Assembly (NCBI GenBank): GCA_046758745.1
Contig: JBHIAV010000069.1
Coordinates: forward strand, 1 to 11,430
Direction of reading: 5' to 3'
DNA length: 11,430 nucleotides
Origin: Gemmatimonadota bacterium
GTDB lineage: Bacteria > Gemmatimonadota > Gemmatimonadetes > Palauibacterales > Palauibacteraceae
Shown: one piece after another, positions 694-11,126 of the stretch
Layout: each line of letters starts with the position of its first letter
Position numbering within the stretch: the stretch's first letter is position 1
The notes under the pieces: model-generated
Databases searched by the model: none
What the model was told of the DNA's origin: nothing
What the model saw: only the letters and a program-made list of their open reading frames with translations
Program-made: the position numbers and the translations under genes

Positions 694-1488
694 ATGCGGC
701 GCCCGGAGGACGTCATGGAGTCCTTGTGCGGCACCCGGGGGAGCCCGAGCACGGTGAGGGAGCTGAACAAGAAGCTGTACGGCCGGATCGAGGCGTGGCG
801 GGCGCGGCGCCCGGAGGGCCATCGCCCCTACGTGTATCTGGATGGGATCCTGCTGAAGCGGAGCTGGGGTGGCGAGGTCCGGAACGCCACGGCTCCGGTG
901 GCCATCGGCGTGAGCGAGGACGGGTTCCGGCGGATCCTGGGAGTCGCCGAAGGCGCCAAGGAGGACAAGGCCAGCTGGAACACATTATTGCGACACTTGA
1001 AGGAGCGGAGTCTGGCGGGCGTCAAGCTGTTCATCTCGGACACGTGCTTGGGTCTTGTCGAGGCGCTGGGCGAGATGTACCCGGACGCGTCCTGGCAGCG
1101 CTGCATGGTGCACTTCTACCGGAACGTGTTCACGGTGGCTCCGAAGGGCAAGGTCCGGGAAGTGGTGGCGATGCTGAAGGCGATCCATGCCCAGGAGCAC
1201 CGCCGGGAGGCGTTGGGGAAGTCGCAGAGTGTGGCGAAGAAGCTCGAGGGGATGAAGCTGCGGAAGGCGCCGGATGGGAACCCGGCGCTGATGCTCGTGG
1301 CGGCAAGGCTGCGGCACATCGCCAGGAGCAAATGTGGCTCGCGGCAGTATCTCGACGTGAGCCTGTTGAAGCGGGATCGGATCGAGGAGCAGCAGTCAGC
1401 CTGACATCGGAGCCGACCCGCGGACCTTGAGATGAAGACCGGATTGAGGATCCACCCGATCGAAAGTGGAAGACGATCCTGACACTAC
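694..1488 (+). mobile_element. IS256-family element remnant: transposase ORF 694-1404 lacking the N-terminus and with an internal deletion; probable right end near 1463-1488
   Basis: IS256 motifs PYVYLDG, VAIGV..DG.R.ILG, LKER.L.GV.LFISD..LGL, WQRCMVHFYRN, MLKAIHAQE. KLRKA joins directly to PDG at 1269/1270, so the segment carrying the TNNxxER catalytic Glu is absent. AAAGTGGAAGACGATCCTGACACTAC (1463-1488) resembles recalled IS256 terminal repeats (lower confidence). Confidence 0.9.
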
Positions 1489-2019: not shown

Positions 2020-2748
2020 TCATGCCGACTGCTGGGGCCGGCAGACGCGGCAGGGGCGGTATCCGACCGAGCGGGCGTCGTCGACCGAGGCGAAGACGAC
2101 CCGGCGATCGGCGCGGGTGCGCTGCGAAGCAGGGCAGCCGACGCGACAGATGACGCGCGTGGCGCTGTTCCCCTGAAAGAGCGGCGTGGATCGCTCCAGA
2201 TCGAGCAGCAGCGGCTTCAGATCGATCCCCAGCCCGTACCCTCCCGGAACGCCGTCGCTCCGGAGAACGCGGTGGCACGGAACGATGAGCGGGACTGGGT
2301 TGCGTCCTAGTGCGGTCCCGACGGCGCGCACGGCGCGCGGGCTCCCGACCCGCCGCGCGATCCAGGCGTAGGCCCGCGTCTCGCCGAACGGGATCCGGAG
2401 GGCCGCCATGAGGACGCTCTTCTGGAAGGCGCCGAGAGCCGACAGATCGGCCGGGACGGAGAAGTAGGCGCGCCGGCCGCGGAAGTACTCCCGCAGCTCG
2501 GCGTGGGCGCGATCGACGAGACGTCTTGCCGCCGCGCCGGCCGACGGCGGGAGCCGCCCGAGATGGAGCCGGGTGATCCCGTGTGCGCTCGCCTGGATCG
2601 AGAGCCGATCGAGGAGGCGGCGCGACAGCCGCCCCGCGCGGGCGGCCCGGGCGGGGGCCGAGCGGGCGACTCGTGCGGCGAGCCCGGGGGGCGGATCCTC
2701 GGGACGAAAGAGAAGGTTCAGCCGGGCGTCGATCGGATCGTGCGTCAT
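2020..2748 (-). CDS. ogt: Methylated-DNA--protein-cysteine methyltransferase (MGMT/Ogt) with a C-terminal Ada-type Cys4 metal-binding domain and an N-terminal extension (242 aa)
   Basis: IPFGETRAY..IARRVGSPRAVRAVGTALGRNPVPLIVPCHRV (active-site PCHR at 2280-2269); C-terminal ICRVGC (Cys-to-Cys 2148-2134) ... GYRPCRVCRP (2052-2041) matches Ada FCRPSC...GFRPCKRC. ATG at 2748 has GGAGG at 2759-2755 and overlaps the sigma stop codon. Confidence 0.92.
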   Translation of the reverse strand: MTHDPIDARLNLLFRPEDPPPGLAARVARSAPARAARAGRLSRRLLDRLSIQASAHGITRLHLGRLPPSAGAAARRLVDRAHAELREYFRGRRAYFSVPADLSALGAFQKSVLMAALRIPFGETRAYAWIARRVGSPRAVRAVGTALGRNPVPLIVPCHRVLRSDGVPGGYGLGIDLKPLLLDLERSTPLFQGNSATRVICRVGCPASQRTRADRRVVFASVDDARSVGYRPCRVCRPQQSA

Positions 2749-3275
2749 CGTCGTCCTCCGCGGGCCAGCCCGGATCTCAGGACCCCCTTCGCCCGGCGCA
2801 GCTGGCTCTTCACCGTGTTGACGGAGATCCCGCGCACGCGGGCGAGCTCCCGGTACGAGAGCCCGTCGACGTAACGGAGCACCACCAGCACGCGCGCCTC
2901 GCGCGGCAGCTTCGCCAGGACGCGGTCGAGATCGGGCGCCGCTGTCGGGCCTCGGTTGGGGGAGGGCGCCCCCGCGGCGCGCAGCGTCGCCGGCAGCTTG
3001 CGGGCGCGGGCCCTGCGCCTGCGCAGCTCGTCGATGCAGATGTTGGTCAGGATCCGGTAGAGCCAGGTCGACACGGCCCACTCCGGCCGGTACGCCGCCC
3101 CCGCCGTGTAAACCTGAACGAAGGTCCTCTGCACCGCGTCTTCCGCATCCTCGGGTGAGCGCAGCAGACGGCGCGCCACGGAGAGCAGCCGTCCCCCGAA
3201 GCGCTCCACCAGCAGGGTGAAAGCCGCCTCATCGCGGCGGGCCACCCTCGTCATCAGCGCGCGGTCGCTCTCCAT
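2745..3275 (-). CDS. ECF (sigma-70 group 4) RNA polymerase sigma factor (176 aa)
   Basis: Region 2: DEAAFTLLVERF...DAEDAVQRTF...STWLYRILTNICIDELRRR; region 4: LAKLPREARVLVVLRYVDGLSYRELARVRGISVNTVKSQLRRAK. ATG 3275 is preceded by CAGGAG. Confidence 0.95.
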   Translation of the reverse strand: MESDRALMTRVARRDEAAFTLLVERFGGRLLSVARRLLRSPEDAEDAVQRTFVQVYTAGAAYRPEWAVSTWLYRILTNICIDELRRRRARARKLPATLRAAGAPSPNRGPTAAPDLDRVLAKLPREARVLVVLRYVDGLSYRELARVRGISVNTVKSQLRRAKGVLRSGLARGGRR

Positions 3276-3291
3276 CGCTCCTGTCACTGTG

Positions 3292-3330
3292 TACGCCGTC
3301 GCCAGCGGAATGGGTGGAAGCAGGATTATA
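3292..3330 (-). promoter_or_regulatory. Putative ECF-type promoter (CACCC-N16-CGTA) plus an upstream TATAAT hexamer for the sigma-ogt operon
   Basis: Minus strand reads TATAATcctgcttcCACCCattccgctggcgacggCGTAcacagtgaCAGGAGcgATG; CACCC 3316-3312, CGTA 3295-3292, TATAAT 3330-3325. Confidence 0.45.
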
Positions 3331-3344
3331 GACACGATGGAAAG

Positions 3345-3656
3345 ATGACGCGCGACGTGGCCTCCGTCGATCTCAGCCTCGCGGTGACGGTGGCCGGGTT
3401 CGAGCGCTTGTCGGAGCCGCAGTGCTTGGCGGTGGCGGCGGACGTCGACGTGCCTCCCCGGGGGATGCCGGCGCGGATGGCTCTCCTTGAAGAAGGTGAG
3501 CTGGTCAGGTCGCGTGACCTGGTGCGGATCGTGCTAACATATCTGTGCACTGGGCCGGCTTTCTCGCGGTTGATGGCGCGAAGGACGGCTGCAAGGCGGC
3601 TGGATGGTTGCCGAAGAGCCCGCCAGATCGAGGGTCCGGCCCCTCACGGCGATTGA
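3345..3656 (+). CDS. Possible hypothetical protein or gene fragment divergent from the sigma gene
   Basis: About the first 60 codons show strong G/C third-position bias, which then weakens; no recognisable motif or clear RBS. Confidence 0.3.
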   Translation: MTRDVASVDLSLAVTVAGFERLSEPQCLAVAADVDVPPRGMPARMALLEEGELVRSRDLVRIVLTYLCTGPAFSRLMARRTAARRLDGCRRARQIEGPAPHGD

Positions 3657-3833
3657 TTCATTCTCGGCGGGACCGACCTCGTTTCGTCCGCCGATGGCCG
3701 TTGCGCTGATCGGCCCTGCGGTGTCCGCCGAGGAGGGACGGAGCCCGTCGGCGCTCCGGGTATCGGGACAGCCCGCCGCACGCCGACGGTGCGTGATGTC
3801 GAGTGCTGAGACGGACGATTGGGAGAGGCGACC

Positions 3834-4124
3834 ATGGCCAAGGTGCATCTGAAACGAAAGGTCCGGCTGGATCGGTTCCTTCAGGAGCTGGTCGACACCG
3901 CGATCGCCAACTACGACGAGTTTTGTGGAGCGCGTTGCAGCCCCGAGGACCGGGAGCAGATGAATCGAGACCTCCAGCGTCGCTTTCGCGAGGTCCTTCG
4001 CATGGATCTGGAGGTGGCCGAGGAGTGCGGCCTGAGCATCTTCTGCCAGGAGGCGTCGCTGCTGGAGCCCTGGTCCGAAGAAGCCGAGCGAGCGCTGGAG
4101 GCGGACGAAAAGCCGCAGACATGA
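3834..4124 (+). CDS. Small hypothetical protein (96 aa) with four Cys and an acidic C-terminus
   Basis: GGGAGAGG RBS before ATG 3834; coding-like codon usage; MAKVHLKRKVRLDRFLQELVDTAIANYDEFCGARC...EECGLSIFCQE. Confidence 0.75.
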   Translation: MAKVHLKRKVRLDRFLQELVDTAIANYDEFCGARCSPEDREQMNRDLQRRFREVLRMDLEVAEECGLSIFCQEASLLEPWSEEAERALEADEKPQT

Positions 4125-4546
4125 GCCACCCCGGCGCCACCGCGCGGCCGGCGTCGCTGCGATGGAGCGCCCCTACCTCAGGGGACTCCACGAGGTGCGC
4201 CGTCTCCGGGGCTCGACGGGCCGCGAGCGGAGCGGGTAGCGGATTTGGCGATCCGCGACCGGCCGGCAGCCGCGCACCGCACAGCGGCACAATCCTCACC
4301 GAAACAGACCGGCGCTCCTCCGTGCTGCCGCCGGGCCGATCTCCCCGGTCGTGCATGACGGCGGGAAGGCGAGCTTCCACGCCCGCGCCTCCCGAGGGAT
4401 CGGTCCGGCCCGGAGGGGCATCCGGCCGAGGCGTCTCCCGATCGCGCGAGGGGCCTGGCATCGGGGGCCCGCCGCCCGCCTCCATCTCTCAGCGACCCGC
4501 CGGCAGCGCTCGGCCGCGTGATGAAGCGCAGCGTGATGCGGGAGTT

Positions 4547-5236
4547 CTACCCGCGCTTCTTGAGCGCCACCCCGATACCCGCGGCGTGCATGTTCAAAAA
4601 GAGTGTTTCCAGGTCCGGGTTGGTCGTGTAGGCCCTGATGAACTCCGGGTAGGGCGCGGGGCGGTGCATGTTGTGCGCGATCACCAGACCGCCGGGACGG
4701 ACGAGAGGCAGCAGCTTCTCCAGATAGTCGAGATACCCCTGCTTGTCGGCGTCCAGGAAGAGAATGTCGATGCGCTCCTTGAGCTTGGTGATCTCCTCGT
4801 GGGCATCTCCGAGGACGAGCGTGACCAGATCGCTCACGCCGGCACGCTCGAGGTTCCTCCTGGCGAGCTCGGCTCGCTCCTCGTTGATCTCGAAGGTCGT
4901 GAGCCTGCCTCCGGTCGTGCGCAAGGCCAGGCAGATCCAGATGGCGCTGTAGCCGTTGGACGTGCCGATCTCCACCACGTGGCGTGCGTTGATCGATTCG
5001 GTGAGCAGGCGGAGCAGGCGGCCATCCTCCTTCGGCACATTCATCATGCCCCGCCGCTGGTTCTTGTCCATGTCATCCAGTACGTCCAGGATCTTCTGTT
5101 CCTCCGGCGTCTTCGCAAGCGGCACGCTCTCGACCGGTCCGCCCTCCCGATCCTGTGCCCAGGACGGCCGCGAGTTCCCGAGTAGCGCAAGGATCGTGAC
5201 TGTGGCCAGAAGCACGATGTATTGAGCTGCCTTCAT
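4547..5236 (-). CDS. SAM-dependent O-methyltransferase (Methyltransf_3 / caffeoyl-CoA OMT-like) with predicted signal peptide (229 aa)
   Basis: VVEIGTSNGYSAIW (motif I), LTTFEI, GDA, DILFLDADKQGYLDYL, LVRPGGLVIAHN; N-terminus MKAAQYIVLLATVTILALLGNSRPSWA|QD; AGGGAG upstream of ATG 5236. Confidence 0.92.
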   Translation of the reverse strand: MKAAQYIVLLATVTILALLGNSRPSWAQDREGGPVESVPLAKTPEEQKILDVLDDMDKNQRRGMMNVPKEDGRLLRLLTESINARHVVEIGTSNGYSAIWICLALRTTGGRLTTFEINEERAELARRNLERAGVSDLVTLVLGDAHEEITKLKERIDILFLDADKQGYLDYLEKLLPLVRPGGLVIAHNMHRPAPYPEFIRAYTTNPDLETLFLNMHAAGIGVALKKRG

Positions 5237-5587
5237 GGTTTTCTCCCTTGTTTTCCAGTTGCGCCCATGCCGGCCTCGACGATCTTCTCGAACAGCAGGC
5301 AATGGGAGAGAATCCCGCCGGGGCTCAGGAGCGTCGTGCGCTTCGTCGCTGGTTCCGCTCTTGGCGGACCGGCACTGAATGAGCCCGGGCCGTCCGAATC
5401 CTCGGTGCGGCCTCATGATAGCGCGGCATCTGGGTATTCGGGATCATCGCGATCCCGCGTGGGCTCCGCGGCGGGACTCGGGCGGCCCGGAACATCCTGA
5501 CGGTGAGCGGGAAGGATGAGGTCCGGAGGAGCCGTCCGGGCCCTCCAGGGCAGGCTCCTGAAGTAGACTGATGGCCGGGGACCAGCC

Positions 5588-6625
5588 GTGAGCTTCCGCT
5601 TCTGGAGACGGATCAGGATCGCCCCGGGGGTGACCCTGAACCTGAGCAGGTCGGCCGGGTCGCTGTCGTTCGGGCCGCGGGGGGCGAAGCTCACCGTCGG
5701 CACGCGGGGCAGGCGGGCGACGGTCGGCATCCCGGGCACGGGCCTCTTCTACACGGCGACGCCTTCAGGCGGTCGGGCCCGGCGGCGGCCGGCCCCTTCC
5801 CCGATCCCGGGGGCTCCCCCTCGACCGCCTCGGGAGCCCCTGACGCTCGGCTTCTTCAAGCGGCTCGTCACGCCGGATGACGAGGAGGCGTTCGTGGACG
5901 GCTGCCGGGAGCTGGCCCTCGGCCATGAAGACAGGGCGCTCGAGCATCTTCAGAAGGCGGTCCACCTGGCGGACGGGGCCTACCTGGCGGGCTTCCTGTC
6001 CCTGAAGAGGAAGCGGCTTCCGCAGGCGCGCGGGTGCCTGATGGAGGCCGAGCGGAAGCGGGACAGGCTCGGACATTACTTCTCCAGGTACGGCATCACG
6101 GCCACCATGAGTCTTCGCATCACCGATGAGGTGTCGGCCCGCGTCGGGCCGGACCTGCGGGGCGTGCTGCTCGGCCTGGTCGAGGTCCACCAGCTCGAGA
6201 AGCGCCCGCAGGACGCGATCGAGTGCCTTCAGAGACTGCGGCGGCTGGAGCCCGACGATGTCGTCGTGAAGCTGTCGCTCGCCGAGCTGCTCCTCGAAGC
6301 CCGGCGGGAGGACAGGGAAGCCTGCCGGAAAGTGATCCGCCTCGCCGAAGCGATCGAGAACGAGACGCCGATCCACACCGCCCTGCTGCTGTACAAGGCG
6401 AGGGCCCTGCGCGCTCTCGGGCTCATGGAGGCGGCGCGGGAGTGCCTGACCGTGACCCTGCGCGGCAAGAGTGGGCGCCCGGAGGATCTCCTGCGGGCCC
6501 TGCGCTACGAGCGGGCCCTGGTCTACCAGGGCCTCGGCCAGCGCCGCCGGGCCCGCAGGGCGCTCGAGAAGCTCTACGCCGAAGATCCGGACTACGAGGA
6601 CGTCGCGTCGCGACTGGGCCTGTGA
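5588..6625 (+). CDS. DUF4236-domain protein with C-terminal TPR repeats (345 aa)
   Basis: N-terminal FRFWRRIRIAPGVTLNLSRS..SLSFGPRGAKLTVG.RG.RATVGIPGTGLFY is the DUF4236 signature; Pro-rich linker; TPR-like helices ending LRYERALVYQGLGQRRRARRALEKLYAEDPDYEDV. Confidence 0.88.
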   Translation: MSFRFWRRIRIAPGVTLNLSRSAGSLSFGPRGAKLTVGTRGRRATVGIPGTGLFYTATPSGGRARRRPAPSPIPGAPPRPPREPLTLGFFKRLVTPDDEEAFVDGCRELALGHEDRALEHLQKAVHLADGAYLAGFLSLKRKRLPQARGCLMEAERKRDRLGHYFSRYGITATMSLRITDEVSARVGPDLRGVLLGLVEVHQLEKRPQDAIECLQRLRRLEPDDVVVKLSLAELLLEARREDREACRKVIRLAEAIENETPIHTALLLYKARALRALGLMEAARECLTVTLRGKSGRPEDLLRALRYERALVYQGLGQRRRARRALEKLYAEDPDYEDVASRLGL

Positions 6626-7075: not shown

Positions 7076-7615
7076 GTGAGATTCGTCGCCATTGATTTCG
7101 AGACCGCGGACTACGAGCCGGACAGCGCCTGCGCCATAGGGCTGGTGCGGGTGGAGGACGGGGAGATCGTCGCGAGGTATCACCATCTCATCAGGCCGCC
7201 GCGCCGCGCGTTCGTCTTCACCGATCTCCACGGCATTTCCTGGAAAGACGTCAGGGGCCAGCCGACCTTCTCGCGATTGTGGCCCGAGCTCACCGAGTTC
7301 TGGAGGGGCGCGGACTTCTTCGCGGCCCACAACGCCGCGTTCGACCGATCGGTCCTGCAGGCCTGCTGCACTCGGGCCGGCTTGAGACCGCCCGCGAAGG
7401 ATTTCACCTGCACGGTGGAGCTGTCACGCCGGGTCTGGGGCATCCGTCCGACGAAGCTGTCGGACGTGTGCCGAGCCCTGCGCATTCCCCTCAATCACCA
7501 CCAGGCGCTCAGCGACGCGGAGGCGTGCGCGCGCATCGTGATCGCGGCAAACGCGATTGCAGAGAAGTCCAGATCGAGAATCTCCCCAACAGTCAGGCGC
7601 ACCTTCTTGCCTTGA
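7076..7615 (+). CDS. DEDDh 3'-5' exonuclease (DNA polymerase III epsilon-like, stand-alone)
   Basis: ExoI FVAIDFETA, LHGI, ExoII AHNAAFD, ExoIII NHHQALSDAEAC. Confidence 0.93.
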   Translation: MRFVAIDFETADYEPDSACAIGLVRVEDGEIVARYHHLIRPPRRAFVFTDLHGISWKDVRGQPTFSRLWPELTEFWRGADFFAAHNAAFDRSVLQACCTRAGLRPPAKDFTCTVELSRRVWGIRPTKLSDVCRALRIPLNHHQALSDAEACARIVIAANAIAEKSRSRISPTVRRTFLP

Positions 7616-7675
7616 CATTGTTTTCACTGAAATGGAGCATTTCACCGTGCGGTGAAAGTGCTCATATTGGTGAAA
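7612..7675 (+). promoter_or_regulatory. Promoter/operator of the AbiEi-like gene: TTGACA plus TTTCAC/GTGAAA inverted repeats
   Basis: TTGACA 7612-7617; TTTCAcTGAAA 7622-7632; GAGCATTTCACCG-tg-CGGTGAAAgTGCTC 7635-7663; another GGTGAAA 7669-7675. The -10 element is not clear. Confidence 0.6.
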
Positions 7676-7690
7676 CCAAGATCCAAGATC

Positions 7691-8344
7691 ATGGTAGACG
7701 AGAAGCTCGAAAAGAGAGTCAGGGAGCGCCTCCGTCGGCTGCTCGAGGATCTGCCCTTCGTGCGCCTCAAGGGCTGGCGCAGGGGAGACGGGGCGCTGGA
7801 GGGGCGGAAGGTCGACTTGGCCGCCGAAGTGATCGCCAGGGGGGAACCGTGGCGCCCCCTCATCGAAGTCGAGGCCAACGGCGAGCCCAGGTACATCCGC
7901 AGCGCTGTCCAGCAGCTCTGTTCCTCCTTGTCCGAAGCACGCAGAGCGTGTGGGATCGTCGCGGCGCCGTATATCAGCCCCGAAGCAGGCAGGATCTGCA
8001 GAAACGAGGGAGTCGGCTATCTCGACCCGGCCGGAAACTGCGCGCTGACCTTCGCGAATCTCTTCATAGAGAGACAGGGGATTGCCAGGCCGACTCAGGA
8101 GCGGCGGCCCCTTCGGAGCCTGTTCGCCCCCAAGGCAGGGCGCGCGCTCAGGGTGCTGTTGGAAGAGCCGGGACGCTCCTGGACACTACAGGCACTCGCG
8201 GAAAGGGCCAAGGTCAGCCTCGGACTCGCCTTCAAGGTTAAGGAACGATTGCTCGACCTCGAGTTCGTCCTGGAAGGGGACGAAGGCCTGACCCTGGTGA
8301 AGCCTGAGCCGCTACTTCGCAGGTGGGGAACCGAATACTCCTAT
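7691..8344 (+). pseudogene. Type IV toxin-antitoxin AbiEi-like antitoxin / transcriptional regulator, C-terminally truncated
   Basis: IEVEANGEPR, GIVAAPYIS....IC...GVGYLD.AGN, wHTH region RSLFAPKAGRALRVLL..P.RSWTLQALAERAKVSLGLAFKV, LLRRWGTEYSY. Resemblance stops at about 8344, where toxin-like sequence begins in another frame. Start could be GTG 7652, GTG 7670 or ATG 7691. Confidence 0.72.
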
Positions 8345-8950
8345 GGTTGTGGTTGGAGGGTGGGTGCCCGTTCTCCTGGTCACCAGTGCTCGCGAGCCTC
8401 ATCCGGGAACCCTGGACATCGACTTAGCCCTCGATTTCACGCGCATTCCCGACGTACCGGACGATCCTGACTGGGTTCACTGTCAGGGGGTACAGACAGG
8501 ATCCCGGTCAACCCTTCCGCTTTTTCCGGACCATCGGCCTTCAGGCCGGCAACCAAGTTGTAGTTGAGGTCGACTTGCTCGCCGGGGAGTATGGTGGTGC
8601 CGGCCCCGGGCACCGAACTCAGCGTGTTCAGGATGCGCGAGCCCGTAAGGCGAGGGGTTGCGAGTTGGTCTTCTCGAATCAGGTGGAGGTGATGGTCGAG
8701 GGGACTCTCCCGGGTGGTGGTCGGGACCGGGTCACGGTTCGCGTGGCCGGCTTCGTAACGACTGGTGATGGAGGGGCTCGCTAAGATCCGTTCCAAGTTC
8801 AAGTCGGTCGATGATCTCGGTCCCAGGTGGGTCGCCGATTTCCTAGAGATCATGGACCCGAGAGAACGCGCGATCACGGTGCGCGACGCCTACGAGACCG
8901 TATGGGGTCTGCTCGATATGCTCGCGGTTGAACCGTGGGAGGGACCCTGA
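8343..8950 (+). pseudogene. AbiEii-like nucleotidyltransferase toxin, broken across three frames
   Basis: VVVGGWVP...HPGTLDIDLAL (Pol-beta NTase GG...DxD motif), frameshift at about 8451 into TYRTIL...GYRQ...QPFRFFRT...VEVDLLAGEYGG...RARKARGCELVF...VRVAGFVT, then a jump at about 8761 into LVMEGLAKIRSKF...GPRWVADF...RDAYETV. No KxxA / KDxxD segment is present. Confidence 0.72.
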
Positions 8951-9137: not shown

Positions 9138-10415
9138 CTAGCCGCTCCGCCCGCTCCGCCAGGCGCGGAAGTATCGCTGATAGCTCGCGCGCTTTCGGGC
9201 CAGGCTCCGCGCCGGCCCGGGATGCTGCGTGGCCCGCAGCAACGACCCCAGGTCGCGGAACTGGCCGGCGTCGAGGCGCGCTTCCTCGTCGCCGAGACGG
9301 GCGTGGAGGCGGGACATCCGGAGGCTCCACTGGGCGGTGAGGTCCCTGGCCGATTCGTAGTCCCCCCTGTCGATGAATTCGACCGTCTCGCGCCGGGCCC
9401 GGGCGGCGCTCAGGAGCTCGACGGCGCGGTCGACGTCGGGATGGACGGGCATCGCGGCCACGCGCTCCGCCTCGCCGCCCGTGACGCGGGCGAGCTGCTG
9501 CAGCTCGATGCGGCCCTGGCCGGGAAGCTCGAGCCACAGGCGGACGTCGAAAAGGTCCAGCGGCTGGCCGGGCTCGCCGCCGTGCGCGGCGACGCGCGCG
9601 ACGATCTCGAGCGGCTGGCCGTGGTTGAGGTCGCCGATCCGCCAGCCCTCCGGGCCGGAGGGGAGGTCGTTCAGGATCTCGACCACCTTCGTGCCGGGCC
9701 GGCGCGGCTCGATCCTCAGGGCGCCCTTGTCGCTGTATAGAGCGGCCAGGCCGGCGAGCTCGGCCTCGAAGATCCGCTTGAGGTCGGCGGGGGACTCGAC
9801 GAACCAGCCGACGCCCCCTCCCGAGACGGCCATCGGGATCATCAGGTCCTCGTTGAAATCGGACCCGATGCCGATGGTGGAGGTGCTGACGCCGCTGCTG
9901 AACAGCTCGCGGACGCGCGTGACGATGGTCTCGGGGTCGATCACGCCGACGTTGGCGAGCCCGTCGCTTATCAGGAGCACCCTGTTGAGGCGCTCCGGGT
10001 CGAGCCGGCGGGAGACCGCGATGCTGCCCTGCACCCAGGCGTCGTAAAGCGCCGTGGTCCGCCCGGCGTCAATCCCCGGGAGCAGCGCCAGGATGCGCGC
10101 CGCCGCCTCGGAGACGGGGAGGGCCGGGACCAGCATCCTCACCCGATCGTCATAGATGGTGAGGCTCACAAGGTCGTCGGGCGCCATGTTCCGGAGGGCG
10201 AAGGCGACGGCCTCCTTCGCGCGGACGAGCTTGTCGCCCGCCATGCTGCCGCTGCGGTCGAGGACGATGCCGAGGTTGAGCCGGCGGCGCTCGGCCCGAG
10301 GCTCGGGAGCGGGGGGCTCGATGCGGATCAGGAAATACGTCGTGCTCTCCCGTCCGGCGACGAGCGCCGGCTTCGCGGGGATGATGGTGATCGTCGGTGC
10401 GCTGTGGTGCTTCAT
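9138..10415 (-). CDS. von Willebrand factor A (vWA) domain protein, cytoplasmic YfbK/CLCA-like type (425 aa)
   Basis: RRRLNLGIVLDRSGSM (MIDAS DxSxS), GRTTALYDAW, VLLISDGLANVG, STSTIGIGSDFNEDLM; AGGAGG RBS at 10427-10422; no signal peptide. Confidence 0.93.
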   Translation of the reverse strand: MKHHSAPTITIIPAKPALVAGRESTTYFLIRIEPPAPEPRAERRRLNLGIVLDRSGSMAGDKLVRAKEAVAFALRNMAPDDLVSLTIYDDRVRMLVPALPVSEAAARILALLPGIDAGRTTALYDAWVQGSIAVSRRLDPERLNRVLLISDGLANVGVIDPETIVTRVRELFSSGVSTSTIGIGSDFNEDLMIPMAVSGGGVGWFVESPADLKRIFEAELAGLAALYSDKGALRIEPRRPGTKVVEILNDLPSGPEGWRIGDLNHGQPLEIVARVAAHGGEPGQPLDLFDVRLWLELPGQGRIELQQLARVTGGEAERVAAMPVHPDVDRAVELLSAARARRETVEFIDRGDYESARDLTAQWSLRMSRLHARLGDEEARLDAGQFRDLGSLLRATQHPGPARSLARKRASYQRYFRAWRSGRSG

Positions 10416-10418
10416 GGC

Positions 10419-11126
10419 CTACCTCCTCACGTATCGGTCGAGAATGGCGCATAGCCTTGAGGCGAGCGCGTGCAGGAATGAGCGGCTCGCGGGGACGCGG
10501 GTGCCCTCGCGGATGTGCAGCTCGATGCCGGGGTGCAGCTCGACGCGGAGCCATCTGCCCTCGCCCCGGGGCTGGTCGGCTCCGGCGCCCGGGGCGGTCC
10601 AGTCGTCGGGGGGTTTGAGGGCGCACTGCAATAGCGCGTCAGGTGCCCTGAGGTCCCGCGTCAGCGTTGGCGCCTGCGTTTCCAAGGTCGGCGAGATCAT
10701 CTCCACCTCTCCCAGCGACTCCGAGTGCCACCGCGGGTTCCAGCTGGCCCATGCCTCGCGCGAGCGGGGCAGAGGCCCGGCCAGCCAGGCCTCGAGCCGC
10801 TCCTCCAGTTGCCGGTCGTCGAGCCCGCCGATGGCCGGGCGGATCGCACGGATCGGCAGGAAGTGCCCCTGCAGCACCTTGATCGCCACCAGCTGCAGGA
10901 GGTGGCGATAGGCGTAGAGCGCTGCGGTTCCGGCCGATGCGTGCGGGCGATCCACGAGCCCCTGCTGGATGTAGTAGCGGATCGTCCGCGCGTCCGGGAC
11001 CCCGGTCACACGGTGCCAGGCCTGCGGGCCGGTCAGTCTCGGGATGATCACGGCCGCCAGGCTCACCAGCTCGTCGATCTTGATGTCCGCTCTACCCCGG
11101 TAAGGGGCGAGCAGCTCGGTGACCAT
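10419..11126 (-). CDS. MerR-family HTH transcriptional regulator (235 aa)
   Basis: PDARTIRYYIQQGLVDRP....TAALYAYRHLLQLVAIKVLQ...LPIRAIR; low-complexity linker; C-terminal WLRVELHPGIELHIRE module. Stop lies 3 nt before the vWA ATG. Confidence 0.88.
   Translation of the reverse strand: MVTELLAPYRGRADIKIDELVSLAAVIIPRLTGPQAWHRVTGVPDARTIRYYIQQGLVDRPHASAGTAALYAYRHLLQLVAIKVLQGHFLPIRAIRPAIGGLDDRQLEERLEAWLAGPLPRSREAWASWNPRWHSESLGEVEMISPTLETQAPTLTRDLRAPDALLQCALKPPDDWTAPGAGADQPRGEGRWLRVELHPGIELHIREGTRVPASRSFLHALASRLCAILDRYVRR

What the first reader, a model, noticed from the sequence alone, without database searches (positions are those of the whole stretch)
2020..3330. ECF sigma factor coupled to an MGMT-Ada(Zn) fusion: candidate sigma-based alkylation (adaptive) response
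Seen: the sigma stop and methyltransferase start overlap as ATGA (2748-2745), the slot usually held by an anti-sigma gene, and no other anti-sigma gene is adjacent. The partner has an N-terminal extension containing PPPGLAARV, an intact PCHR site and a C-terminal Cys4 Ada domain, but no AraC HTH and no transmembrane helix. Established: E. coli Ada senses methylphosphotriesters via Cys38 of its Zn domain and activates transcription through an AraC-type HTH; MGMTs are suicide enzymes that change conformation on methylation; ECFs are typically co-transcribed with their anti-sigma. Inference: this protein is both repair enzyme and soluble anti-sigma, and self-methylation releases the sigma, giving an adaptive response without Ada-type activation. 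ECF-ogt gene neighbours may already be noted in ECF classifications; I cannot check this, and I know of no demonstration of the mechanism.
Basis: partly seen in the sequence, partly recalled or inferred. Interest (0 to 1): 0.85.

Follow-up and report, generated by a model that had tools for sequence, protein, structure and literature searches.

The report
Sigma factor paired with alkylation-repair protein
A small alternative sigma factor is made together with a single-use DNA-alkylation repair protein that probably also holds the sigma factor in check, a gene pairing that is already catalogued but whose mechanism nobody has tested.

Summary
An ECF sigma gene (3275..2745, minus strand) ends in ATGA with the start of a 242-aa protein (2748..2020). 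That protein has a 48-residue N-terminal extension, a complete O6-alkylguanine methyltransferase with PCHR, and a C-terminal Ada-type Cys4 zinc domain.

- **Pairing:** a sigma gene lies directly upstream in 78 of 80 related loci from several phyla, and 61 of 79 pairs share the 4-base overlap.
- **Already known:** the ECF classification lists such pairs for Actinobacteria (ECF122, ECF203) with no anti-sigma and no known mechanism. This scan also met the module on at least 10 other genomes.
- **Promoter:** a conserved ECF-type promoter (TTCCACCC-N16-CGTACA) precedes the sigma gene and is the only strong site in the 3.08-Mb genome.
- **N-terminal extension:** it carries a motif conserved across phyla, but it is not a recognisable anti-sigma domain.
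- **Second module:** another contig of the same genome encodes a sigma factor followed by a true zinc anti-sigma domain fused to an MGMT.
- **C-terminal tail:** many partners end in Ala-Ala, which resembles a degron.

Best reading, at about 0.5: the partner is a self-consuming anti-sigma. The complex prediction could not be run, so binding is untested.

The parts
3312..3319 (-). -35 element TTCCACCC of the conserved ECF-type promoter
   Evidence: The regex motif is in 17 of 22 clade-A upstream regions and in 0 of 200 shuffles. It is the only strict match in the 3.08-Mb genome.
3290..3295 (-). -10 element CGTACA, 16 nt after the -35 and 14 nt before the ATG
   Evidence: A PWM trained without the window scores this site 24.5 bits; the next best site in the genome scores 19.0.
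3325..3330 (-). TATAAT hexamer just upstream of the ECF promoter. It is shared with the closest relative L004 and has no matching -35.
   Evidence: Read. The sigma-70 consensus scan found no full promoter.
2745..3275 (-). ECF sigma factor gene (176 aa plus stop). Sigma-2 lies at about 3212-3009 and sigma-4 at about 2930-2787.
   Evidence: Pfam and NCBIfam. Start chosen from the RBS AGGAG at 3282-3278 and from homologue N-termini.
2745..2748 (-). ATGA overlap of the sigma stop and the partner start (translational coupling)
   Evidence: The same 4-nt overlap is in 61 of 79 pairs.
2605..2748 (-). N-terminal extension of the partner (residues 1-48). It forms two predicted helices (5-13 and 23-48) and contains PPPGLAARV.
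   Evidence: AF2 pLDDT is 86-94 here. L10 and P20 are at least 90% conserved in 78 sequences across phyla. No Pfam or PDB sequence match.
2431..2604 (-). MGMT N-terminal (ribonuclease-like) domain, shortened (residues 49-106)
   Evidence: The structure match to M. tuberculosis OGT 4bhb_A covers model residues 41-198 (Z 17.2). hhalign against the ZAS-MGMT family starts here.
2191..2430 (-). MGMT catalytic / DNA-binding domain (residues 107-186), with PCHR at 2280-2269
   Evidence: PF01035 E 2e-28; genome search places it at 2191-2430. C158, H159, R160, N150, Y127, R141 and E185 are invariant in 78 sequences.
2035..2178 (-). Ada-type Cys4 zinc domain (residues 191-238; C201, C205, C233, C236)
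   Evidence: PF02805 E 3e-8; genome search. Matches 1u8b_A with Z 8.0, rmsd 1.0 over 52 residues. The four Cys are invariant.
2020..2034 (-). Short C-terminal tail (QQSA) plus the stop codon, predicted flexible
   Evidence: The last pLDDT block is 54. 35 of 78 partners and 103 of 120 close homologues end in Ala-Ala, against 1.8% of own-genome frames. The window's own tail ends Ser-Ala.

Best explanation
The two genes form a self-contained, self-activating alkylation-damage switch.

SHOWN from sequence and comparison:
- The sigma factor and the MGMT-Ada(Zn) protein are made from one transcript, with overlapping stop and start codons.
- An ECF-type promoter precedes the sigma gene and is conserved across relatives.
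- Both methyl-acceptor sites are intact.
- The partner carries a conserved N-terminal extension in all 78 sigma-linked sequences compared; 8 plain MGMTs sampled had neither an extension nor a sigma neighbour.

INFERRED:
- The unmethylated partner binds the sigma factor, through the N-terminal helices and possibly further surfaces, and keeps it off RNA polymerase.
- Repair of O6-methylguanine (Cys158) and/or a methylphosphotriester (Cys201) methylates the partner irreversibly.
- The methylated form changes conformation or stability and may be degraded; many family members end in an ssrA-like Ala-Ala tail. The sigma factor is then set free.
- Free sigma transcribes its own operon, and new partner both restores repair capacity and re-sequesters the sigma.

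The output seems to be mainly replacement of the consumed repair protein rather than a broad regulon.
For: Pairing. 78 of 80 loci carry the sigma gene upstream, and 61 of 79 pairs share the ATGA-type overlap. No other gene cluster is shared by more than 13 of 80 loci.

Catalytic sites. The PCHR Cys and the four zinc Cys are invariant in 78 of 78 sequences. All 78 carry PF01035 and PF02805.

N-terminal extension. The motif (L10, P20 at 90% or more) is conserved from Methylomirabilota and Acidobacteriota MAGs to Chloroflexota and Actinomycetota. It is predicted as two confident helices. Eight plain MGMTs without an extension have 0 adjacent sigma genes. The one locus without a sigma (L025) is frameshifted, and the motif is not recognisable there.

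Autoregulation. The promoter motif is in 17 of 22 clade-A regions and 42 of 54 clade-B regions, against 0 and 0.2 in shuffles. The window's site scores 24.5 bits; the next best in the genome scores 19.0.

Rosetta-stone analogue. Contig C49 of the same genome has an ECF sigma followed by an MGMT whose N-terminus carries C...H-x3-C-x2-C. Its model matches anti-sigma domains: RslA 3hug_B Z 7.0, and ChrR 2z2s_B Z 5.5 with rmsd 1.5 over 55 residues at 31% identity. Seven of the first eight non-MGMT rows are anti-sigma factors. Of 13 Gemmatimonadota relatives, 12 keep the sigma upstream, and all 13 partner starts sit at the ATGA position.

Tail. Ala-Ala ends 35 of 78 partners and 103 of 120 homologues, 0 of 78 sigmas, and 1.8% of own-genome frames.

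Literature.
- Alkylation destabilises an archaeal OGT through its interdomain contacts (PMC4605297; abstract and section 22 read).
- Alkylated AGT is degraded in several organisms, and Ada Cys38 methylation acts as an electrostatic switch (PMC10779285; passages read).
Against: - No binding evidence exists. The complex prediction never ran.
- The extension is not a recognisable anti-sigma domain. hhalign against the ZAS-MGMT family aligns only the MGMT part. There is no Pfam or PDB sequence hit, and no HxxxCxxC in 0 of 78. No anti-sigma row appears among the top 50 structure matches, although that region was barely tested.
- The extension is modelled confidently without sigma, so it could simply be a structural part of the enzyme.
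- The authors of the ECF classification propose TetR control for ECF203 and saw no autoregulation there.
- The window's own tail ends Ser-Ala, not Ala-Ala.
- The three MGMT-linked sigma clades do not group together in a FastTree tree. What holds for the ZAS type may therefore not transfer to this one.
Confidence: 0.5

Rival explanations
1. The partner is only cargo. The sigma factor drives a repair operon whose main product is the MGMT-Ada(Zn) enzyme. Sigma activity is set elsewhere, by transcription from another promoter, an unlinked regulator or protein turnover. The N-terminal extension is a structural addition to the enzyme.
For: No anti-sigma family matches the extension. The extension folds confidently in the monomer model. 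The ECF classification files ECF122 and ECF203 as lacking an anti-sigma, and suggests TetR control for ECF203. A TATAAT hexamer lies just upstream of the ECF promoter in the window and in L004.
Against: A self-activating ECF promoter with no brake would run away, and the only co-conserved gene is the partner. The 4-nt overlap, which keeps the two genes in one transcription and translation unit, is held across phyla. The eight plain MGMTs sampled, which have no sigma neighbour, lack the extension. A sister arrangement has a true anti-sigma domain in exactly this position. No TetR gene is found in the window.
Confidence: 0.27
2. The partner is a positive co-factor, as in Ada. After methylation of the zinc-site cysteine it gains DNA affinity and helps the sigma-RNA polymerase holoenzyme at the operon promoter. 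The sigma factor supplies the sequence recognition that the AraC-type HTH supplies in E. coli Ada.
For: The zinc domain matches methylated N-Ada bound to DNA (1u8b_A, Z 8.0, rmsd 1.0), and all four Cys are invariant. Methylation of Ada Cys38 raises DNA affinity by an electrostatic switch (PMC10779285 passages). That Ada contacts sigma-70 is my recollection and comes from no call.
Against: The ZAS-MGMT modules have no zinc domain, and the ECF122 context description names only the two MGMT domains, yet both keep the pairing, so the shared element is the MGMT part. In the ZAS type the added domain is an inhibitor fold. No Ada-box-like second motif was looked for, so this is untested rather than excluded.
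Confidence: 0.13
3. The adjacency is incidental, or one of the genes is decaying, so there is no functional link.
For: The contig is short (11.4 kb) and carries a truncated Mutator-family transposase. The module is absent from the 40 closest genomes.
Against: Both frames are intact, with all catalytic and zinc residues. Pairing and overlap recur in 78 of 80 loci and 61 of 79 pairs from several phyla. The promoter is conserved.
Confidence: 0.02

Closest known systems
ECF203 group of ECF sigma factors (Casas-Pastor et al. 2021, PMC7826278; supplement passages and one main-text passage read)
   Same: The ECF sigma has an O6-methylguanine methyltransferase at +1 and an Ada_Zn_binding domain in the context. 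No recognisable anti-sigma factor is present, and no member has been characterised.
   Different: - ECF203 is described as 100% Actinobacteria, with TetR, an HTH protein and an MFS transporter conserved nearby, and without a conserved promoter.
- The window has none of these neighbours.
- The window's relatives are mostly Methylomirabilota and Acidobacteriota MAGs.
- The window's sigma falls in a clade apart from the Actinomycetota and Chloroflexota one.
- Both clades do show a conserved promoter.
- Whether my clade B is ECF203 could not be tested, because no ECF group HMMs are on hand.
ECF122 group (same source; review PMC8999054, passages read)
   Same: A 6-O-methylguanine DNA methyltransferase is conserved at +1. 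There is no putative anti-sigma. The group is listed under 'unknown mechanism' and thought to act in DNA damage repair.
   Different: ECF122 is Actinobacteria only. Its partner is described with the two MGMT domains only, with no Ada zinc domain mentioned. Its predicted promoter is CTCAC / CGTCTAC, against TTCCACCC / CGTACA here.
Escherichia coli Ada (adaptive response regulator)
   Same: It combines an MGMT domain and a Cys4 zinc methylphosphotriester-acceptor domain in one protein. Irreversible self-methylation is the signal, and the protein induces its own synthesis.
   Different: The domain order is reversed here (MGMT first, zinc domain last). There is no AraC-type HTH, and the first 17 profile positions of the zinc domain are missing. 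Promoter recognition would come from a separate sigma factor. The proposed logic is release of an inhibitor rather than activation of a DNA-binding protein.
Class I (zinc-binding, ZAS) anti-sigma factors such as ChrR, RslA, RsiW and RsrA
   Same: The gene sits directly after the ECF sigma gene with overlapping stop and start, and the protein is soluble. A sister module in the same genome (contig C49) has a true ZAS domain fused to an MGMT.
   Different: The window's extension has two helices and no His or Cys ligands. It shows no detectable similarity to ZAS domains: sequence and profile tests gave nothing, and the fold comparison barely tested this part.
Stand-alone Ogt / MGMT (for example M. 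tuberculosis OGT, 4bhb)
   Same: It has the two-domain fold (Z 17.2, 38% identity), the PCHR active site and the DNA-binding helix-turn-helix.
   Different: The window's protein adds an N-terminal extension, a C-terminal zinc domain and a sigma gene upstream. The eight plain MGMT loci sampled have none of these.

Membership tests
ECF (group 4) sigma-70 family | Only the sigma-2 and sigma-4 domains are present, and the protein is about 170-200 aa | tested here: met
   Sigma70_r2 E 6e-18, Sigma70_r4_2 E 5e-16, Sigma70_ECF E 2e-5. TIGR02937 scores 99.8 bits against a cut-off of 42.9. The protein is 176 aa from ATG 3275.
ECF122 | Assignment by the group's own HMM / phylogenetic placement | not testable with these tools
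   No ECF group HMMs or reference sequences are available. The held supplement text was cut when stored.
ECF122 | MGMT gene at +1 and no anti-sigma gene | tested here: met
ECF122 | Actinobacterial origin, and a promoter of the form CTCAC ... CGTCTAC | tested here: not met
   The promoter here is TTCCACCC-N16-CGTACA. The nearest relatives are Acidobacteriota and Methylomirabilota MAGs.
ECF203 | MGMT at +1 together with an Ada_Zn_binding domain | tested here: met
   PF01035 and PF02805 lie in one protein. All 78 of 78 relatives have the same architecture.
ECF203 | Conserved TetR, HTH and MFS neighbours; Actinobacteria | tested here: not met
   The window has no TetR or MFS Pfam hit. No further gene is shared by more than 13 of 80 loci.
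O6-alkylguanine-DNA alkyltransferase (MGMT/Ogt) | PCHR active-site motif with the Asn hinge, Tyr, Arg finger and Glu of the catalytic network, and a two-domain fold | tested here: met
   PF01035 E 2e-28. C158, H159, R160, N150, Y127, R141 and E185 are invariant. Matches 4bhb_A at Z 17.2. Activity itself is not testable here.
Ada N-terminal zinc methylphosphotriester-repair domain (PF02805) | Four zinc-binding cysteines in CxxxC ... CxxC, and the N-Ada fold | tested here: met
   PF02805 scores 34 bits against a cut-off of 23, covering profile positions 18-64 of 65. C201, C205, C233 and C236 are invariant. Matches 1u8b_A at Z 8.0, rmsd 1.0 over 52 residues. The first helix of N-Ada is missing.
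Ada / AdaA-type transcriptional regulator | AraC-type helix-turn-helix DNA-binding domain following the zinc domain | tested here: not met
   P0002 has no HTH_18 or AraC Pfam hit. The protein ends 6 residues after the last zinc Cys.
Class I anti-sigma domain (ASD / ZAS, zf-HC2) | H-x3-C-x2-C zinc motif | tested here: not met
   0 of 78 partner N-termini carry the motif.
Class I anti-sigma domain (ASD / ZAS, zf-HC2) | Sequence or profile similarity to known anti-sigma domains | tested here: not met
   75 N-terminal fragments gave no anti-sigma Pfam hit at E up to 10. The PDB profile search gave no anti-sigma chain. hhalign against the ZAS-MGMT family aligns only from column 43 on.
Class I anti-sigma domain (ASD / ZAS, zf-HC2) | Three- to four-helix ASD fold | tested here: inconclusive
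   The model has two helices (5-13 and 23-48). No anti-sigma row appears in the top 50, but the tool states that this part was barely tested.
Anti-sigma factor (functional class) | Binds its cognate sigma and blocks its association with core RNA polymerase | not testable with these tools
   The complex prediction was never accepted by the queue. The question needs an experiment.

The most novel reading that the evidence does not exclude
A suicide DNA-repair enzyme acts as the anti-sigma factor. Each repair event irreversibly methylates one partner molecule. That molecule then lets go of its sigma factor and is probably cleared through its C-terminal Ala-Ala-type tail. This would be a new class of soluble anti-sigma sensor, with a two-helix sigma-binding module unrelated to known anti-sigma domains. 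It would also be a second route to an adaptive response to alkylation, evolved independently of Ada and spread over many soil phyla.
Probability: 0.4. Interest if true: 0.8.

Novelty: new member of a known kind. Interest (0 to 1): 0.55.

Why it matters
The Ada response of E. coli is the textbook case of a protein that turns chemical damage into a transcriptional signal by methylating itself. If this module works as inferred, many uncultured soil phyla solve the same problem with a sigma/anti-sigma pair whose sensor is the repair enzyme itself.

That would add a new input type, irreversible enzyme consumption, to ECF signalling. It would also explain two catalogued ECF groups (ECF122 and ECF203) that have no known regulator.

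The module is small (two genes and one promoter) and appears self-contained, so it is directly testable in a heterologous host. It could also serve as an alkylation-damage reporter.

The pairing itself is already in the literature, and this scan has met it repeatedly. What is open is the mechanism.

Tried and rejected
- **Complex prediction.** I sent sigma alignment A3 and partner alignment A2 to complex prediction 30 times. It was never accepted: the queue was full or the machine gave no usable answer. There is no verdict of any kind.
- **N-terminal extension against known families.** All of these gave nothing:
  - Pfam on 75 fragments at E up to 10;
  - a PDB profile search;
  - hhalign against the ZAS-MGMT family;
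  - the ESM Atlas on residues 1-50;
  - an HMM of the extension against all 27,967 open frames of the own genome, which found only itself;
  - a VIA-align wide search of the whole model, with no anti-sigma row in the top 50.
- **Bridging form.**
  - 0 of 78 partners have HxxxCxxC.
  - A protein search with the ZAS region of the C49 protein found only 3 proteins, none with PF02805.
- **Wider regulon.** The strict motif occurs once in the genome. The PWM's next best sites score 19 bits or less and were not examined gene by gene.
- **Other conserved neighbours.** None is shared by more than 13 of 80 loci. The large extra clusters are the two genes' own antisense shadow frames.
- **Promoter of the ZAS-type module.** I looked by eye only, and nothing was clear.
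- **Other scans.** Rfam found no RNA family in the window. The sigma-70 promoter and terminator scan found none.
- **Literature.** Searches for a demonstrated mechanism found nothing on an alkyltransferase acting as anti-sigma. The 2023 review of the alkyltransferase family (PMC10779285) has 0 occurrences of 'sigma' in its main text.
- **Limit on the classification source.** The supplement of PMC7826278 is held only in part (357,196 characters of a 20-MB archive). Other ECF groups with MGMT neighbours, or groups holding Rokubacteria sequences, may be described in parts I could not see.
Full report
**What is in the window**

On the minus strand, an ECF sigma gene and a methyltransferase gene overlap as ATGA at 2748-2745.

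The sigma factor has only sigma-2 and sigma-4 domains (Pfam) and passes the NCBIfam ECF superfamily cut-off.

The listed ORF starts at GTG 3335, but the likely start is ATG 3275. Three things point to this:
- it is preceded by AGGAG;
- homologues begin with the same M-E/D-x-D/E-R-A-L-M N-terminus;
- the conserved promoter lies inside the longer ORF.

The partner (P0002, 242 aa) has the following parts:
- an MGMT catalytic domain at residues 107-186, with PCHR at 157-160;
- an Ada-type zinc domain at residues 191-238, with CRVGC and PCRVC;
- a 48-residue N-terminal extension containing PPPGLAARV.

It has no AraC-type HTH. None of the flanking open frames on either strand has a Pfam match that could be an anti-sigma factor. 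Rfam finds nothing in the window.

**Is the pairing more than chance?**

A protein search found thousands of relatives. The best 120 all have the same two Pfam domains and near-full coverage, extension included.

In 78 of these 80 loci an ECF sigma homologue lies immediately upstream on the same strand. The two exceptions are:
- L075, where the contig ends before the gene;
- L025, where the gene is frameshifted and no sigma is present.

Of 79 pairs (78 loci plus the window), 61 share the 4-nt stop/start overlap and 76 lie within -14 to +7 nt. One of the three outliers, L072, is a start I could not assign.

The loci come from MAGs and isolates labelled as follows:
- Methylomirabilota, Acidobacteriota and Binatia;
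- Chloroflexota and Actinomycetota (Nonomuraea, Actinokineospora, Acidimicrobiia);
- Dormibacterota-like and Entotheonella.

No other gene is shared by more than 13 of the 80 loci. The conserved unit is therefore just the two genes.

**The partner protein**

I aligned 78 partners: the window plus 77 loci, with L072 dropped for its unassigned start. The PCHR cysteine, its catalytic neighbours and all four zinc cysteines are invariant. All 78 carry both Pfam domains.

The AF2 model is confident (pLDDT 94, pTM 0.83). Structure searches (values) match it to:
- M. tuberculosis OGT (4bhb_A, Z 17.2);
- methylated N-Ada bound to DNA, for the last 50 residues (1u8b_A, Z 8.0, rmsd 1.0 over 52 residues).

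The protein therefore looks like a working double methyl acceptor, with the domain order reversed relative to E. coli Ada.

The N-terminal extension is predicted as two helices (residues 5-13 and 23-48). It carries a motif, L..L...(A)P..L...V, whose L10 and P20 are kept in at least 90% of sequences across phyla.

It is not a recognisable anti-sigma domain:
- no Pfam or PDB sequence match;
- no zinc motif in any of the 78;
- no alignment to a zinc anti-sigma domain by profile-profile comparison;
- no anti-sigma structure among the top 50 fold matches, although the tool warns that this part was barely tested.

**Promoter and regulon**

The regions upstream of the sigma genes carry ECF-type promoters in two clade-specific forms.

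| Clade | Members | Motif | Found in | In shuffles |
|---|---|---|---|---|
| A | window, Methylomirabilota, Acidobacteriota | TTCCACCC-N16/17-CGTA(T/C)A | 17 of 22 regions | 0 of 200 |
| B | Chloroflexota, Actinomycetota | GCAAC-N17-21-GTT | 42 of 54 regions | mean 0.2 |

In clade A the -10 element ends 8-18 nt before the start codon in 16 of the 17 regions. In clade B it mostly ends 9-12 nt before the start. Some of the regions without a motif have starts that I probably mis-assigned.

In the window the site is at 3319-3290. The strict pattern occurs nowhere else in the 3.08-Mb, 87%-complete genome. A weight matrix trained without the window scores this site 24.5 bits and the next best site 19.0.

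The sigma factor therefore very probably transcribes its own operon and little else. A self-activating sigma needs a brake, and the only co-conserved gene is the partner.

**A second module in the same genome**

Contig C49 encodes another ECF sigma. Its stop overlaps the start of a 230-aa MGMT that has no Ada zinc domain but does have the N-terminal motif C...H-x3-C-x2-C. Pfam zf-HC2 is below threshold there (E 0.03).

The AF2 model of this protein (pLDDT 86) was searched against 48,161 solved chains. After seven MGMT rows, seven of the next eight rows are anti-sigma domains aligned to residues 3-57:
- RslA, Z 7.0;
- RsiW, Z 5.6;
- ChrR, Z 5.5, rmsd 1.5 over 55 residues at 31% identity;
- MucA, PupR, RskA and RseA.

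The Z values are modest, but the enrichment is plain.

Thirteen Gemmatimonadota relatives keep this architecture. Twelve of them have a detectable sigma upstream, and all 13 partner starts sit at the ATGA position. In the same search, eight plain MGMTs without an extension have no sigma neighbour, 0 of 8.

So a true anti-sigma domain fused to an MGMT exists, in this very genome, in the same position as the window's partner. It does not prove that the window's different extension does the same job.

In a FastTree tree of 103 ECF sequences, the three MGMT-linked clades (A, B and the ZAS type) do not group together against the genome's other ECFs. Deep nodes of such a tree are unreliable. Taken at face value, the association arose more than once or is very old.

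**C-terminal tail**

The partners end a few residues after the last zinc cysteine.

| Set | End in Ala-Ala |
|---|---|
| 78 partners | 35 |
| 120 close homologues | 103 |
| 78 sigma factors | 0 |
| 6,805 own-genome frames of 200 aa or more | 1.8% |

The tail is the only low-confidence part of the model.

A C-terminal Ala-Ala resembles the ssrA-like degron. One preprint abstract, seen only in a search listing (10.1101/491043), reports such a degron for mycobacterial anti-sigma factors and ClpX.

The window's own tail ends Ser-Ala, and close homologues are not independent samples. This is a lead, not a finding.

**What is known**

The supplement of the ECF reclassification (PMC7826278, passages read) describes two groups.
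- **ECF122:** Actinobacteria, no anti-sigma, a 6-O-methylguanine DNA methyltransferase at +1, and a CTCAC / CGTCTAC promoter.
- **ECF203:** Actinobacteria, an O6-methylguanine methyltransferase at +1 plus Ada_Zn_binding, with TetR and MFS neighbours.

The main text says ECF203 'lacks any obvious regulator' and seems not to be auto-regulated. A 2022 review lists ECF122 under 'unknown mechanism' and ECF203 under possible TetR control (PMC8999054).

My searches found no paper that shows or proposes an alkyltransferase as anti-sigma. A 2023 review of the alkyltransferase family never mentions sigma factors in its main text.

The supplement is held only in part, so other relevant groups may exist in parts I could not read.

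Earlier notes of this scan describe the same kind of module on at least ten other genomes. They agree with the reading here but are not independent evidence.

**Mechanism**

I commit to the self-consuming anti-sigma model at about 0.5.

Shown:
- co-transcription and overlapping stop and start codons;
- intact acceptor sites;
- a conserved extension present in all 78 sigma-linked partners compared, and absent from the 8 plain MGMTs sampled;
- a conserved auto-promoter;
- a true ASD-MGMT analogue in the same genome.

Inferred:
- binding of sigma by the unmethylated partner;
- loss of binding or stability after methylation;
- possible proteolysis through the tail;
- re-synthesis that closes the loop.

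Published work makes the middle steps plausible. Alkylation destabilises an archaeal OGT by disturbing its interdomain contacts (PMC4605297; abstract and section 22 read). Alkylated AGT is degraded in several organisms, and Ada Cys38 methylation is an electrostatic switch (PMC10779285).

The rivals are:
- the partner is only cargo (0.27);
- the partner is an Ada-like co-activator (0.13);
- the adjacency is chance or decay (0.02).

**Context and caveats**

The window is a whole 11.4-kb contig carrying a truncated Mutator-family transposase at 694-1404.

None of the 40 closest genomes has a full-length window-type partner. They have MGMT-only matches or canonical Ada-order genes. The nearest homologue, at 78% identity, is in a MAG of another phylum. 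The module was therefore either acquired horizontally or the contig is mis-binned.

The own assembly has no other Ada zinc domain.

The complex prediction that would have tested binding in silico could not be run.

**Verdict**

The anti-sigma mechanism is plausible, indirectly supported and untested.

Noticed in passing
own genome contig C49 = L001:113-1695 (minus strand): This is a second sigma-coupled MGMT module in the same genome. An ECF sigma is followed, with overlapping stop and start, by a 230-aa MGMT. Its N-terminus is a zinc anti-sigma domain (C...H-x3-C-x2-C) whose model matches ChrR, RslA and RsiW. It has no Ada zinc domain. Its relatives are Gemmatimonadota MAGs, 12 of 13 with the sigma upstream.
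   Followed up: yes
window 2020-2034 (-) and the C-termini of L004-L083 partners: Partners end a few residues after the last zinc Cys. They often end in Ala-Ala: 35 of 78 partners and 103 of 120 close homologues, against 1.8% of own-genome frames and 0 of 78 sigmas. This may be an ssrA-like degron. The window's own tail ends Ser-Ala.
   Followed up: partly
window 694-1404 (+): A truncated Mutator-family (IS256-like) transposase lies here (Pfam profile positions 118-306 of 379), about 600 bp beyond the end of the partner gene. None of the 40 closest genomes has a window-type partner, and the best homologue is in another phylum. The module may be horizontally acquired, or the contig may be mis-binned.
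   Followed up: partly
own genome (G000) and relatives G001-G040: The own assembly (87% complete) has no canonical Ada; its only Ada zinc domain is the window's. Several relatives have the classical order, with the zinc domain upstream of MGMT in one frame, for example G011:C3:85379-86377.
   Followed up: partly
window 3276-3295 (-) and the upstream regions of L004-L083: The -10 element ends only 8-18 nt (clade A) or mostly 9-12 nt (clade B) before the sigma start codon. Many of these transcripts would therefore be leaderless or nearly so. The window itself keeps an AGGAG.
   Followed up: partly
L025:2765-3507: This is the only related locus with upstream DNA but no sigma gene. Its MGMT-Ada(Zn) gene is split over two frames, by a frameshift or an assembly error, and the N-terminal motif is not recognisable. 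An acyl-CoA dehydrogenase-like gene lies divergently upstream.
   Followed up: partly
window 3336-4546: About 1.2 kb between the sigma promoter and the O-methyltransferase gene has only Arg/Pro-rich open frames with no Pfam match and no Rfam match. No gene is recognisable there.
   Followed up: no
window 9138-11126 (-): A MerR-like HTH protein (10419-11126) is directly followed by a von Willebrand factor A domain protein (9138-10415). This may be a two-gene unit of unknown role.
   Followed up: no
window 4547-5416 (-), 5588-6625 (+), 7076-7615 (+), 7652-8470 (+): Other genes in the window are:
- a family-3 O-methyltransferase with an N-terminal hydrophobic segment;
- a DUF4236 plus TPR protein;
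- an RNase T / DnaQ-like exonuclease;
- a 272-aa protein with no Pfam match.
   Followed up: no
L084-L095, upstream of the ZAS-type sigma genes: Several of these loci seem to encode a short hydrophobic peptide (...VLLGYLS.VLT...) just upstream of the sigma gene. I looked by eye only.
   Followed up: no
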